From Thermodesulfobacteriota bacterium (lineage in GTDB: Bacteria; Desulfobacterota; Desulfobacteria; Desulfobacterales; C00003060): 64,000 nucleotides of DNA. How positions within the stretch are numbered: position 1 is the first letter of the stretch; each line of letters opens with the position of its first letter. The position numbers are program-made. Below, piece after piece: positions 48,001 through 51,000 of the stretch. The stretch lies in NCBI GenBank assembly GCA_034189385.1, contig JAXHVD010000005.1:32001-96000 (forward strand), in the 5' to 3' direction.

Positions 48001-51000
48001 AATCTCCCACCGCGGAGACTGATGGGTTGTCCATGATCCCAGCTCGGCGGGAGAGCCTTCCCCTTGACCACCCAATAGGATTATCCTATTTTCTTATAAA
48101 AGGCTTAAGAAAAGCTTGCGCTCAGAAGTGGCAGTGAACCTCTTTGGCGGACGGTGATGAAAAGAGGCCCATGGCTGAAGTGGTCCACACTAGAACTTAT
48201 GAACATTACGACAAAATAATAGGATATGAGCGATACAAACTGGTGTGTCATCAGCGGTGCGCCGTCTTCAGGAAAAACAACGCTGGTGGAGGAGCTTGAA
48301 AGGCGCGGCTACCGGGTTATTCATGAAGTGGCCAGGGCCATCATTGAAGCAGGGATGGAGCAGGGCCGAACGCTAGAAGAGATTAGATCAGATGCAGAGT
48401 CTTTTGAAAACCTTGTCCTGAACACCAAGATTGCCATAGAGGCAGATCTTCCAAAGGATGAGGTCATTTTTCTTGACAGGGCCGTACCAGACAGCATTGC
48501 ATATTTTGAGATTGCAGGTTTGAATCCAGAGGAGGCTCTCGCAAAAAGCCCTCGCAATCGTTACAAGAAGGTTTTTTTGCTGGATAGACTTGCCTATCTG
48601 AGGGATGATGCCAGAATAGAAGATCAGGAGGAGGCCGCAAGTCTGGATCAAAGCCTGGAGGCCAGCTACTCAGCGCTCGGCTATGAGGTGATCAGAATTG
48701 GGGTGATGCCCGTCAAAGAGAGACTAACACGCGTCATAGAGGAAATAGAAAAAGAGTAAGGGTTCATCCTGTTACCCTTGGCGAGTGACAACCACCGGCT
48801 GTTGCCACCAGGAAAAGGAGGTGCCTCTATGGAGAGGAAGGTTGGGAATTCAGTAGTTGAGGTGAGCCAGTCCGACTTGACTGAGATGGACACAGATGCC
48901 ATCGTCAATGCCGCCAACGCGCAGCTTATCCTAGGCGCTGGTGTGGCCGGCGCCATCAAGGCCAAGGGCGGTCCAAAGATCCAACAAGCATGCAATGTCA
49001 TTGGGGGGACCTTTGTAGGCGGGGCGGTGATAACGACAGGAGGAAATCTAAAAGCCCGTCACGTCATCCATGCAGTAGGGCCTCAGATGGGTGAAGGCGA
49101 AGAAGACGAAAAGCTCAAAAACGCCACCCTAAATAGCCTCAAGGTGGCAGATGAAAACAACCTTGCCAGCCTCAGTTTTCCGGCTATCAGTACGGGCATC
49201 TTTGGCTTTCCAAAGGACCGCTGCGCCGAGATCATGCTTGGTACTGTCATTGAGTATCTAAAAAAGGGAGAGACCAGACTTCAAAGGGTGGTCTTCTGTC
49301 TTCACGGAGCGTCCAGTTTCGAGATTTTCTCAGCAGCCTTGAAACGGCTCCAAGCATAAACATAATCTGAGTGTCACTTACGTCGTGCATCCTGCCAGAT
49401 GGCGTCCACAGGTGGAAGCCTTAACTTGCCAGGGGCATGATGCGGCGCAACCCGATTCTGTCTGGTCGGAGGAGGCCAGAGGAAGCGGCATGGACTTCTT
49501 ACAAACCGTCATTGTGGTGGGCATGGCATGGAGTTGTTCACAGGCGAAGGGATCCTACTTGCAGGAACCATAACCTTGGCATTCGCCCTTTGTTCCCAGT
49601 CAGTGACATCTTCTTTCTGGAGAAAAAGCGCAGTGTTGCCGTGACAATTGTTGCAGTTTTTGTTTTGTGGCGTCACCCGTTGAAGCGTGTGAGGTGTGTC
49701 CAGTTTCCAGGTAGGAAGTCTGTCAAAATCGCTTAGCCCGTCCTTTACATAGAAATCAAAGAGGCCCGGATGTGCAGGGGCATGACGCAACACTACATAG
49801 TTATAGGGCCTGTCTTCACTCTTGCCAGGATTGATGCCTATCTTAAAGAGCATCGTGGTTTCCCTAGATTGGTAGTAGGGAAGGCCTTGTTTGTCTGTTC
49901 CAACGTGGCACTGGAAGCAGTTTTTGTAGGGCCTGCCGTGGCAGACTTGGCATGCCACCTTGTCCCTGTGAATCCTGTGTGACGCTGTGCTAGGGTTTTC
50001 CGATACAGCGTCCCAGTGGCAGTTTTCGCATCGGGGCCTCTCGGGCAGATCAAGTCGACTGGAAACCCCCATGGCATCAGCATGCATCTCCATGCCGGTG
50101 TGGCAGTCCATACACGTCATGTTCACTTTGGCATAATGGACGTCTGCTGGATACCCCTCGTTTCCCCCAGTATACTCCTTATAAGTGCGGCCGCTGTGGC
50201 AGCCCGCACAGCCAGAGTCCATTGGTGGGCTCTTCTGAAAAACATGTCCGGCCAGGAACCCCCCCTCCGCGTAATCTGGACGGCTGACATGACACTGCCC
50301 GCAGCTTGCGTGACAGACACTGCAGTGCTTATCTCTGGCCGACCAGACTTTGTCCATGATTCCCTGGTCCTTCTTGTTGGTCCGGGCCCTGATCGTCCTG
50401 CTGAAGGGAGCCAGCGTGTAGTGAAGGCTATTCTTGGCTGTGGACGTGATACCCTGGTGACATGCTCCGCAAGCCTTGTCGGCATCGGGAAAGGTGGGAT
50501 CTCTCACAAGCCCCTCGTGGGCGGCCTGCCAATTGGATGCCAGTGGGTTGCCTTGATGGCATGTCTGGCAAGGTATTTTCCCATGGCGGGTCTTGAGGAA
50601 TGACCGGTCAACATAGGTCCTCTCGTGCGGCTCGGACCAAGCCACAGGCTCGGCTCAACATTCGCCAGTGGATTCTGGTGACGGGCCAGGCTTTGGCCTT
50701 ACCTTTTCCATCTCCCTGGCCAAGGTGACTTGCCTTTCGGCATTGGTGTGGCAACTGACGCATTCACTCTGCGCCAAGTCCTGGTTAGCCACAGAACGCG
50801 GTGACACGCCACACGCCGGCAGGGCAAAAGATAAGACTAGAAGTCCAATGGAGATAAAAAATGCTCCCAGCCTATTTGTCCTGTTCCATTTCAGAGAGTC
50901 TATCTCGAGCATTTCTCGCATATTCGCTGTCGGGGTAATTAGCCACAATTTCCTGGTACAACTTCTTGGCGTGCTCTTCGTTGTGTTGCAACTCTTCCAG

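What a model noticed while it worked through the whole genome (the two positions that open the first line are those of the whole stretch)
49509..50921. Unnamed family of 11-haem periplasmic cytochromes with a conserved Cys-Sec (C-U) pair
g03071 and g03070 (C45:81509-82921, minus strand) are one gene interrupted by a TGA. Read through, it gives a 470-aa lipoprotein-like cytochrome with 11 CxxCH motifs and the motif S-T-G-E-C-U-A-E-P between the first and second haem sites. Boldest reading: a new multihaem selenoenzyme family in which a vicinal Cys-Sec pair is the catalytic redox centre fed by the haem chain; by analogy with MccSep it probably acts on an inorganic sulfur or selenium compound. 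New if true: a second, unrelated class of multihaem cytochrome c selenoenzymes, widespread in Desulfobacterales.
Evidence so far: Sequence: the joined translation has one in-frame stop (TGA) at residue 89, in the context PSPESTGEC*AEPVAWSEPH. Relatives: of 151 Desulfobacterales genomes searched with the read-through protein, 23 have a match at E<=1e-20, in 19 genera. Of 25 matching places, 24 (this genome's own included) hold a TGA inside the match, at 34-62% identity among relatives. Families: no Pfam or NCBIfam family covers the whole protein. There are only partial cytochrome c7/c554/c3 domain hits (32-42 bits over residues 238-339) and DmsE-type decahaem models far below cut-off (34.7 bits against 192). 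tRNA-Sec is present. Genus: no match in the 2 other genomes of the genus in that sample.
(Added by a program. Inside this text positions count along the whole contig: contig position 32,001 is position 1 of the stretch shown here. "Call 12" and the like, gene names such as g00115 and contig names such as C1 are that model's own, and its searches are not shown. The text may have been shortened before it was handed on; [...] marks where a part breaks off. The agent that wrote the report below was given it as the finding of a first reader that could run no searches.)

Follow-up and report, generated by a model that had tools for sequence, protein, structure and literature searches.

The report
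Selenocysteine eleven-haem cytochrome c gene
What gene callers cut into two genes is one gene for an exported eleven-haem cytochrome that reads an internal TGA as selenocysteine, a member of a widespread selenium-enzyme family missing from the catalogues checked that probably handles sulfur compounds.

Summary
Window 49512-50921 (minus strand) is one 470-codon frame with 11 CxxCH motifs and a single internal TGA at codon 89.

The TGA is a selenocysteine codon:
- It sits at the same aligned site in 123 of 126 related loci. Two others carry Cys there and one is cut by a contig end.
- A covarying hairpin with an invariant G-U loop follows it at fixed spacing.
- The genome has selA, selB, selD and tRNA-Sec.

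The "conserved Cys-Sec pair" is not conserved. Residue -1 is Gly in 121 of 123 loci and Cys only here and in one close relative. The family motif is G-x-G-U-[G/A]-G.

The protein is not a MccSep relative. Its closest solved relative is the Shewanella octahaem tetrathionate reductase (profile E 4.3e-7; Z 8.3).

Sister clades are fused to, or directly followed by, rhodanese, which points to sulfane-sulfur chemistry. This window's clade has no linked rhodanese.

Two cytochrome selenoprotein families are already listed (ExtKL/MccSep and the tetrathionate-reductase family), so this would be a third, not a second. I found it in none of the lists I could read. This scan has met the family before on other DNA.

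The parts
49512..50921 (-). Coding sequence of the 470-residue 11-haem selenocysteine cytochrome c. The stop codon, TGA, follows at 49509-49511.
   Evidence: one frame, one internal TGA, 11 CxxCH. The start is ATG at 50921 or 50912; no other ATG/GTG/TTG lies before the hydrophobic segment (read).
50811..50921 (-). N-terminal export signal (residues 1-37), with a lipobox-like L-P-A-C ending at Cys37.
   Evidence: Sequence. All 45 aligned relatives also start with a hydrophobic signal segment upstream of haem 1 and of the TGA. The ORF downstream of the TGA (49509-50645) has no such segment.
50748..50762 (-). Haem-binding motif 1 (CVSCH, residues 54-58), upstream of the TGA.
   Evidence: Invariant in 46 of 46 aligned sequences.
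50658..50660 (-). Cys88 codon (TGT), directly before the Sec codon. This is a lineage-specific substitution of the family's Gly.
   Evidence: Gly in 121 and Cys in 2 of 123 loci. Same-genus relatives L005, L006 and L008 have Gly.
50655..50657 (-). In-frame TGA read as selenocysteine (U89).
   Evidence: The site is shared by 123 of 126 loci, and L041 and L042 carry Cys there.
50626..50646 (-). SECIS-type hairpin UGUGGCUUG-GUC-CGAGCCGCA. It starts 11 nt after the U of UGA, with loop G-U at +20/+21.
   Evidence: searches (fold; family alignment): 90.9% of cells paired against 32-46% when slid; pairs 17-27 CG 68/AU 28 and 18-26 UA 63/GC 36; loop G21 and U22 invariant in 99 of 99.
49641..50570 (-). 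Haem-binding motifs 2-11 (residues 118-427). This is the part that resembles octahaem tetrathionate reductase.
   Evidence: coordinates of each motif; 1sp3_A, Z 8.3, rmsd 4.7 over 255 residues, model residues 110-464; profile E 4.3e-7.
50872..51093 (-). Upstream 73-codon ORF for a small lipoprotein with a BamD/YbgF-like TPR piece. It overlaps the cytochrome start by 41-50 nt. Its link to the cytochrome is not shown.
   Evidence: PF13525, 21.9 bits, below cut-off; TIGR03302, 28.7 bits against 81.4. It was not recovered as a conserved neighbour in 77 loci.

Best explanation
The two called genes are one gene for an exported 11-haem cytochrome c selenoprotein.

Shown here:
- SelB and tRNA-Sec can decode the UGA at codon 89, using a hairpin that begins 11 nt downstream and presents a G-U in its loop.
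- The selenocysteine lies in a glycine-rich loop (family motif G-x-G-U-[G/A]-G) between haem 1 and haem 2. It is the only invariant non-haem chalcogen residue in the family.
- Haems 3-9 and 11 form a core distantly homologous to octahaem tetrathionate reductase.

Inferred:
- The Sec loop of the N-terminal extension reaches the distal side of a catalytic haem. This is most likely haem 4, which aligns with the reductase's catalytic haem 2.
- There the selenolate attacks a sulfane-sulfur or related anionic chalcogen substrate (polysulfide, persulfide, thiosulfate or tetrathionate; possibly selenite).
- The haem chain supplies electrons to release sulfide or thiosulfate.
- In sister clades a fused or adjacent rhodanese delivers the sulfur. 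This genome's copy belongs to a paralogous clade without a linked rhodanese.
- This copy has acquired a Cys next to the Sec, which could form a selenenylsulfide as a resting or resolving state.
For: One gene with Sec:
- There is one frame with one internal TGA, and the gene's own stop is also TGA, so this is not a general TGA-sense code.
- The signal peptide and haem 1 lie upstream of the TGA, while the downstream ORF has no export signal.
- The TGA is at the same site in 123 of 126 loci at 30-65% identity. In the order-wide search, 54 of the 56 strong places that span the site hold a TGA (my count from the table).
- Cys forms exist: L041 and L042, and 14 of 40 full-length representatives without a TGA.
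- The hairpin covaries: 0 of 500 shuffles reach the observed score, and 90.9% of cells are paired against 32-46% when slid.
- The machinery is present: selB 370 bits (cut-off 242), selA 612.6 (cut-off 268), selD 388.8 (cut-off 125), tRNA-Sec 72.2 (cut-off 47).

Fold:
- Profile against PDB sequences: 1sp3 at E 4.3e-7.
- VIA-align: Z 8.3, with the next hit at 3.8.
- Foldseek: 1sp3 is the top hit, at E 0.059.

Sulfur link:
- Seven loci are fused in frame to tandem rhodanese (PF00581, 111.5 bits).
- In 32 of 77 loci a roughly 145-residue rhodanese gene lies directly downstream (88 bits in L122 and L097).

Active-site hints:
- Only 9 non-motif His are invariant for 11 haems. Two further His are present in 40 of 46 sequences.
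- R180, R245 and R289 are invariant.
Against: - No coordinates of the model were available, so the position of Sec relative to any haem is untested.
- The alignment to the tetrathionate reductase is ambiguous for haem 4: two HMMER domains place it against the reductase's haem 2 or haem 3.
- The region around haems 4-5 has low model confidence (pLDDT 51-67 for residues 201-240).
- The window has no adjacent rhodanese, and 36 of 77 loci have none within about 7 kb. The sulfur inference is therefore borrowed from paralogous clades.
- In the wider superfamily, 25 of 40 full-length representatives have neither Sec nor Cys at the site, so the scaffold can work without it.
- Window neighbours give no functional clue: Feo/Fur iron uptake, ZnuA, a Macro domain gene.
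- No expression or protein data exist.
Confidence: 0.6

Rival explanations
1. One reading: a vicinal Cys-Sec pair is the conserved catalytic redox centre of the family. It would cycle as a selenenylsulfide fed by the haem chain.
For: The window has C88-U89. One 63%-identical relative (L100) has the same pair. Three Cys-type representatives carry Cys-Cys at the equivalent place: P0145 and P0148 (GECCGG) and P0166 (GLCC) (read by eye). A second chalcogen at -1 has therefore arisen more than once.
Against: Residue -1 is Gly in 121 of 123 Sec loci. That includes the same-genus relatives at 64-65% identity. As a family mechanism it fails. At most it is a lineage-specific addition.
Confidence: 0.08
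2. Sec is an axial haem ligand (a His/Sec haem) that tunes potential or gates electron transfer. The protein would then be an electron carrier or conduit and not an enzyme acting through a free selenolate.
For: Eleven haems have only 9 strictly invariant non-motif His. The two further candidates are missing in the 6 most divergent sequences of 46. Sec/Cys is the only other invariant potential ligand. His/Cys haems are catalytic in MccSep (C239), and the MccSep paper cites the same for TsdA (PMC13510729, introduction and results read).
Against: Twenty-five of 40 full-length superfamily representatives have no Cys or Sec at the site yet keep the haem motifs. The rhodanese fusion and adjacency argue for substrate chemistry and not for pure electron transfer. 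No structural test was possible.
Confidence: 0.15
3. The enzyme works like octahaem tetrathionate reductase on small oxyanions (tetrathionate, nitrite, hydroxylamine or selenite) and not on sulfane sulfur. Sec would take the role of that reductase's active-site Cys.
For: The reductase is the only clear structural and sequence relative. A Sec form of the tetrathionate-reductase family exists in which U replaces the Cys of the NNFC stretch (deep-Sep supplement file 1, compared by eye with the 1sp3 alignment). MccSep also reduces selenite.
Against: The Sec lies in a different part of the chain, an N-terminal extension absent from the reductase. The segment equivalent to the reductase's Lys/Cys stretch has no Cys in this family. 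TIGR04315 gives no match at E <= 1. The reductase's substrate range is recalled and comes from no call.
Confidence: 0.15
4. The TGA is a true stop: either two genes (a monohaem and a decahaem protein), a pseudogene, or an assembly error.
For: Gene callers split it. Nearly all database entries for the family are ORFs of about 370 residues that start just after the TGA (about 42 of the best 150 representatives, counted by eye).
Against: The site is conserved in 123 of 126 loci, with purifying selection on both sides in one frame. The downstream ORF has no export signal. There is a covarying hairpin and a complete Sec machinery.
Confidence: 0.02

Closest known systems
Octahaem tetrathionate reductase of Shewanella oneidensis (PDB 1sp3) and the NCBIfam family TIGR04315, which has listed Sec forms
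   Same: It is the closest solved structure and sequence: profile E 4.3e-7 over several haem motifs and Z 8.3, rmsd 4.7 over 255 residues covering model residues 110-464. It is a periplasmic multihaem enzyme of sulfur-oxyanion chemistry. Its family also has members with Sec at the active-site Cys.
   Different: This protein has eleven haems, not eight, and an extra N-terminal extension with haems 1-2 and the Sec loop. The Sec is at a non-homologous position. There is no TIGR04315 match at E <= 1. Haems 4 and 5 are two residues apart, against about 20 in the reductase.
MccSep / ExtKL (GSU2937-2936, NF040886, PDB 9wt8), the pentahaem selenoenzyme polysulfide reductase of Geobacter sulfurreducens
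   Same: It is an exported multihaem cytochrome c split by gene callers at a Sec-UGA. The Sec sits in a Gly-containing loop next to a catalytic haem. It has a sulfur or selenium substrate and a rhodanese (ExtH) in the same gene cluster (PMC13510729; PMC5877670, search listing only).
   Different: MccSep has five haems, and its Sec is near the C-terminus (D-G-U-P) in an Ig-like domain. It also needs a conserved haem-ligating Cys (C239). Here there are 11 haems, the Sec is at residue 89, and there is no second invariant Cys. Sequence relation is only generic (E 0.019), with no NF040886 match.
Rhodanese-linked 11-haem Sec cytochromes noted earlier by this scan on other DNA
   Same: It has the same architecture (11 CxxCH, in-frame TGA in a glycine run, downstream hairpin). 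Judging by my own loci, it is the same family.
   Different: Those notes describe the cytochrome as always or nearly always paired with rhodanese. This window's clade is not: 36 of 77 loci, including the window, have none nearby. It also carries Cys instead of Gly before the Sec.
Gly-Cys-Sec-Gly redox centre of mammalian thioredoxin reductase (recalled, from no call)
   Same: It has a vicinal Cys-Sec dipeptide able to form a selenenylsulfide, as in this window's G-E-C-U-A.
   Different: It is an unrelated flavoprotein in which the pair sits at the C-terminal tail and is universal in that family. Here the pair is in 2 of 123 loci.

Membership tests
Bacterial selenoprotein (SelB-dependent UGA recoding) | In-frame UGA conserved among orthologues, with Cys-containing homologues at the same site | tested here: met
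   123 of 126 loci have the TGA at the same site. L041 and L042 carry Cys there, and 14 of 40 full-length representatives have Cys.
Bacterial selenoprotein (SelB-dependent UGA recoding) | Stem-loop immediately downstream of the UGA with G-U in the apical loop | tested here: met
   An 8-bp helix at columns 13-20/24-31 with loop G21 U22 invariant in 99 of 99. Five of 8 pairs show changes on both sides. 0 of 500 shuffles reach the score. Six of the 105 distinct sequences were left out of this alignment: L033 and L126 (indels) and L043-L046 (a different hairpin, loop GGUC(A/C)A).
Bacterial selenoprotein (SelB-dependent UGA recoding) | selA, selB, selD and tRNA-Sec in the genome | tested here: met
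   All four are over their curated cut-offs.
MccSep / ExtKL (NF040886) | Five CxxCH motifs, Sec in a D-G-U-P loop of a C-terminal Ig-like domain, and a conserved haem-ligating Cys | tested here: not met
   There are 11 CxxCH and the Sec is at residue 89 of 470. There is no invariant Cys besides the haem Cys and the Sec site. The features are taken from PMC13510729.
MccSep / ExtKL (NF040886) | Match to the family model or to the solved protein | tested here: not met
   NF040886 is not among the matches at E <= 1. Against 9wt8 the profile gives E 0.019, 16.9 bits.
Tetrathionate reductase family octahaem cytochrome (TIGR04315) | Match to the family model over cut-off; eight haems | tested here: not met
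   TIGR04315 is not among the matches at E <= 1. There are 11 haems.
Tetrathionate reductase family octahaem cytochrome (TIGR04315) | Shared fold of the haem core | tested here: inconclusive
   Z 8.3 over 255 residues, well above the next hit at 3.8, but at the level the tool calls middling. Foldseek gives E 0.059. The profile gives E 4.3e-7. This is distant homology, not membership.
Tetrathionate reductase family octahaem cytochrome (TIGR04315) | Lys-ligated catalytic haem with a nearby Cys between haems 1 and 2 (recalled) | not testable with these tools
   No coordinates were available. The equivalent segment (residues 156-199) has no Cys in the family.
DmsE/MtrA-type decahaem cytochromes (TIGR03508) | Match over the curated cut-off | tested here: not met
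   34.8 bits against 192.2.
11-haem Sec cytochrome with rhodanese partner (earlier notes of this scan) | 11 CxxCH, TGA in a glycine-rich loop after haem 1, downstream hairpin | tested here: met
11-haem Sec cytochrome with rhodanese partner (earlier notes of this scan) | Adjacent or fused rhodanese | tested here: not met
   No rhodanese ORF lies next to the gene in the window; downstream is a convergent Macro-domain gene. Four rhodanese-domain places lie elsewhere in the genome.

The most novel reading that the evidence does not exclude
The family is a third, independently evolved multihaem selenoenzyme. A single selenocysteine, carried on a flexible glycine loop of an N-terminal add-on, acts in trans on the distal face of a haem in a tetrathionate-reductase-like core. 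It does so either as the first natural His/Sec-ligated haem or as a selenolate nucleophile forming Se-S intermediates. In this lineage a newly acquired neighbouring Cys turns the site into a thioredoxin-reductase-like Cys-Sec selenenylsulfide switch, which lets the enzyme work without a rhodanese partner.
Probability: 0.15. Interest if true: 0.85.

Novelty: new variant of a known kind. Interest (0 to 1): 0.62.

Why it matters
Sulfate-reducing and related Desulfobacterota dominate anoxic marine sediments. An abundant selenium-dependent multihaem enzyme in them is systematically truncated in databases. Nearly all of the best 120 hits are ORFs of about 370 residues that lack their signal peptide, first haem and Sec.

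Recognising it does three things:
- It corrects thousands of annotations.
- It adds a family to selenoproteome counts.
- It offers a second experimentally tractable case, after MccSep, of selenium-sulfur chemistry at a haem.

The rhodanese fusions give a direct handle on the substrate. The Gly-to-Cys change next to the Sec in this genome is a natural experiment on whether a resolving thiol alters such a site.

Tried and rejected
- Sigma-54 promoter upstream of the gene. The pattern TGGCACNNNNNTTGC with up to 2 mismatches gave 71 matches in the window against 69.7 expected, and none in the upstream region 51094-51400 on the minus strand.
- Conserved partners. Clustering ORFs of 77 loci gave only a PAS/sigma-54 activator (35 of 77 loci, not in the window), a molybdopterin oxidoreductase below all NCBIfam cut-offs (9 loci), a cytochrome b561 (6 loci) and a cytochrome c3 (4 loci). 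None is near the window's gene.
- RNA evidence. No RNA holder was listed.
- Read support for the Cys-Sec codons. Contigs of runs X1-X3 were laid, but no listed piece bridges the TGA; pieces end at 50655/50658 and at 50652/50679.
- PDB sequence search with the single protein gave 0 hits at E <= 1. Only the family profile found 1sp3.
- The hairpin GCCGAGCC-UGU-GGCUUGGU directly after the UGA is out of register with the family helix. I prefer the in-register fold. The 71-nt fold has an unremarkable z-score of -0.13.
- BSepDB's family table (Table S2) could not be seen; only Table S1 is held, and it is cut. That catalogue may therefore list the family under another name.
- An unlinked partner. An exported Sec-rhodanese elsewhere in the genome (L150) is only 24% identical to the partner rhodanese of L122. 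That is no evidence of partnership.
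Full report
**1. Observation**

Reading window 49509-50921 on the minus strand with TGA as U gives 470 residues followed by the terminal stop, which is itself TGA. The single internal TGA is codon 89 (window 50655-50657), in the context PESTGEC-U-AEPVAW.

There are 11 CxxCH motifs, at residues 54, 118, 151, 200, 207, 238, 270, 298, 324, 335 and 423. The N-terminus has a hydrophobic export segment ending in L-P-A-C37. The table-11 ORF downstream of the TGA (49509-50645) has no export segment, although c-type haem attachment needs export (established knowledge).

Pfam gives only partial c7/c554/c3 matches. NCBIfam gives DmsE at 34.8 bits against a cut-off of 192. The finding's coordinates are right. 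Its offset note is not: the window is C45:32001-96000.

**2. Is the TGA a Sec codon?**

An order-wide search of 401 genomes found 79 with a match at E <= 1e-10. The weaker matches cover only residues of about 160-342 and are generic multihaem cytochromes. By my count from the table, 60 places in 53 genomes score E <= 1e-36. Of these, 56 span residue 89, and 54 of those hold a TGA.

I fetched 45 of these places and 80 more from the species-representative collection, where 421 stretches encode a relative. The two sets come from the same collection of species representatives, so they overlap.

Residue-by-residue results:
- Of 126 loci, 123 have the TGA at the same aligned position between haem 1 and haem 2. 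These give 106 distinct 72-nt stretches.
- Two loci (L041, L042) have Cys there, in ...EGCGG... and ...SGCGG....
- One locus (L117) is cut by its contig end.
- All 45 aligned relatives have a signal segment and haem 1 upstream of the TGA.

A gapless alignment of 99 distinct UGA+39-nt stretches was made from 105. I left out L033 and L126 (indels) and L043-L046 (a divergent clade with a different hairpin). It shows one helix at columns 13-20/24-31 with an invariant G21-U22 in a three-base loop:
- 90.9% of cells pair, against 32-46% when the partner is slid.
- Pair 17-27 is CG in 68 and AU in 28.
- Pair 18-26 is UA in 63 and GC in 36, with none unpaired.
- 0 of 500 shuffles reach the covariation score.
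- The stem flip even swaps the encoded peptide, A-P-L-E-P against E-P-L-A-P.

In the window the in-register hairpin is UGUGGCUUG-GUC-CGAGCCGCA. The spacing of the loop G-U, about 21-22 nt from the U of UGA, is like that recalled for E. coli fdhF.

The genome has selB, selA, selD and tRNA-Sec over their cut-offs. Because the gene ends in TGA, recoding must be local. I put the odds that this is a real selenoprotein at about 0.95.

**3. The Cys-Sec pair**

Residue -1 is Gly in 121 of 123 Sec loci. It is Cys only in the window and in L100, a 63%-identical relative. Residue +1 is Gly in 105 and Ala in 18. Same-genus relatives at 64-65% identity have GEGUGG, GKGUAG or GEGUAG.

The family motif is therefore G-x-G-U-[G/A]-G, and the Cys is a recent Gly-to-Cys change. 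Three Cys-type representatives of the wider superfamily carry Cys-Cys at the same place (P0145, P0148, P0166, read by eye). A second thiol at -1 has thus arisen repeatedly. It may matter locally, but it is not the family's centre.

**4. What the protein resembles**

An AlphaFold2 model built from the 46-sequence alignment has mean pLDDT 80.7 and pTM 0.76. It is weak at residues 201-240.

Foldseek finds only 1sp3, the Shewanella octahaem cytochrome, at E 0.059. The all-against-representatives structural search gives 1sp3_A at Z 8.3, rmsd 4.7 over 255 residues, covering model residues 110-464. The next hit is at Z 3.8.

The family profile hits the 1sp3 sequence at E 4.3e-7. MccSep (9wt8) reaches only E 0.019.

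Read by eye from the HMMER alignment, the reductase's haems 1, 2, 4, 5, 6, 7 and 8 pair with this protein's haems 3, 4, 6, 7, 8, 9 and 11. Haem 4 alternatively pairs with the reductase's haem 3. The protein thus looks like a tetrathionate-reductase-like core plus an extra haem 10 and an N-terminal extension carrying haem 1, the Sec loop and haem 2.

The segment that in the reductase carries the NNFC stretch has no Cys here. In the listed Sec forms of the reductase family that stretch reads NNFU.

Invariant residues across 46 sequences are the 22 haem Cys, 11 motif His, the Sec/Cys site, 9 further His, and R180, R245, R289, D260 and N447. Two more His (H199, H380) are present in 40 of 46. At least two haems therefore lack a strictly conserved distal His.

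**5. Function**

Seven loci (L034-L040) continue in frame into a roughly 290-residue tandem rhodanese (PF00581 at 111.5 bits; 3-mercaptopyruvate-sulfurtransferase-like at 107 bits, below cut-off). This fusion explains why one source names many truncated ORFs 'thiosulfate/3-mercaptopyruvate sulfurtransferase'.

Among the 77 loci with at least 7 kb:
- 32 have a roughly 145-residue rhodanese gene directly downstream (88 bits in L122 of Desulfosarcina widdelii and in L097 of D. alkanivorans).
- 5 are fused.
- 4 have a rhodanese nearby. One of these is L064, which my script mislabelled as fused; its rhodanese ORFs lie upstream.
- 36 have none.

The 36 without rhodanese are almost all in the clade closest to the window, with 50% identity or more and motif U-[G/A]-G-P-L-A-P-L-E-P-Y-E-K. 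Four genomes (G396, G388, G018, G192) carry one copy of each clade, so the clades are paralogues.

The window's own genome has only the rhodanese-less type. Its neighbours are uninformative: FeoB, a Fur-FeoA fusion, ZnuA, a Macro domain gene, radical SAM and NifB-like genes.

The sulfur reading is therefore an inference from gene fusion in sister clades plus the kinship to a tetrathionate reductase. I give sulfane-sulfur or related chalcogen redox about 0.5-0.6.

**6. Comparison with what is known**

MccSep (PMC13510729; introduction, results and one supplement row read) has five haems, a Sec in a D-G-U-P loop of a C-terminal Ig-like domain, and a haem-ligating Cys239. None of these is met here.

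Published selenoprotein lists name two cytochromes:
- 'Cytochrome c family protein' / ExtKL (NF040886). Its listed sequences carry ...PDGU..., so they are MccSep (PMC9312934 table rows; deep-Sep supplement files 1 and 3; Peng 2016 Table S3, 22 organisms and 27 proteins).

The motifs GEGUGG, GAGUGG, GEGUAG and EGUG do not occur in deep-Sep's four supplement files (some sequence runs there are cut). This is so even though D. widdelii PP31, one of that study's test genomes, has an orthologue (L122).

Literature searches:
- 'selenocysteine + multiheme cytochrome + selenoprotein' gave 4 papers.
- 'selenocysteine + rhodanese + multiheme + cytochrome' gave 4 papers.
- 'undecaheme + selenocysteine' gave 0.
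- 'octaheme tetrathionate reductase + selenocysteine' gave 1, which was irrelevant.

None of these papers describes the family. BSepDB's family table was not readable.

**7. Size of the family**

- The word-indexed search gave 692 proteins at E <= 1e-10. Nearly all of the best 120 have 328-399 residues, meaning they are cut at the TGA.
- The profile search of 1.84 billion representatives gave 1933 at E <= 0.001, 710 at E <= 1e-10 and 221 at E <= 1e-30.
- Of the best 150, about 42 start just after the Sec site (counted by eye).
- Forty span the site without a TGA. Of these, 14 have Cys at the Sec column and 25-26 have neither Cys nor Sec.
- The two Cys-form genomes checked both have selB.

**8. 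Earlier notes of this scan**

Word and sequence look-ups returned at least nine earlier reports of the same kind of gene on other DNA. All name MccSep as the closest known relative, and most say a rhodanese partner is always or nearly always present.

My own data agree on the Sec reading. They add the kinship to the tetrathionate reductase. They contradict 'always paired' for this clade.

**9. Verdict**

This is a genuine member of a widespread selenoprotein family that I found in none of the lists I could read. It is the third kind of multihaem cytochrome selenoprotein, and it is here in a rhodanese-less paralogue with a lineage-specific Cys-Sec dipeptide. The rest of that reading largely stands.

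Noticed in passing
L005-L129 (alignment A2, columns 13-31 after the TGA): The two arms of the SECIS stem are swapped between clades (GGCUCC...GGAGCC against GGAGCC...GGCUCC). This swaps the encoded peptide from A-P-L-E-P to E-P-L-A-P, so an RNA-structure constraint is visibly shaping the protein sequence.
   Followed up: partly
L150 (G000:C1:35300-37200, minus strand): An exported single-domain rhodanese with an in-frame TGA in its active-site loop (..LYCAUPAEH..). It is unlinked to the cytochrome and only 24% identical to the partner rhodanese of L122.
   Followed up: partly
L151 (G000:C23:168800-170600, plus strand): One open frame joins a peroxiredoxin-like part (..FTSVUTDE..) and a rhodanese part (..FYCAUPKE..). 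Each has its own in-frame TGA, so this may be a double-Sec fusion protein.
   Followed up: no
L138 (G000:C29:10803-11726): The genome's selD itself holds one in-frame TGA. It is a Sec-type selenophosphate synthetase.
   Followed up: no
window 50872-51093 (-): A 73-codon lipoprotein ORF with a BamD/YbgF-like TPR piece overlaps the cytochrome's start by 41-50 nt. It was not recovered as a conserved neighbour in 77 loci.
   Followed up: partly
window 44464-47588 (-): An iron-uptake block lies downstream: FeoB (729 aa) and a 231-aa Fur-FeoA fusion. ZnuA follows at 43345-44394.
   Followed up: no
L083, L101, L111, L116, L123: Five relatives have 13 CxxCH motifs, not 11. The C-terminal tail after the 11th motif's position is about 78 residues long and carries two further haem sites.
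   Followed up: no
window 50652-50679: In two independent metagenome runs the listed assembly pieces end within a few bases of the Cys-Sec codons (50655/50658 and 50652/50679). This may reflect strain variation at that spot.
   Followed up: no
L041, L042: In the two Cys-type relatives the 11th haem site is C-x-x-x-C-H (CYDNCH, CFSNCH) and not CxxCH.
   Followed up: no
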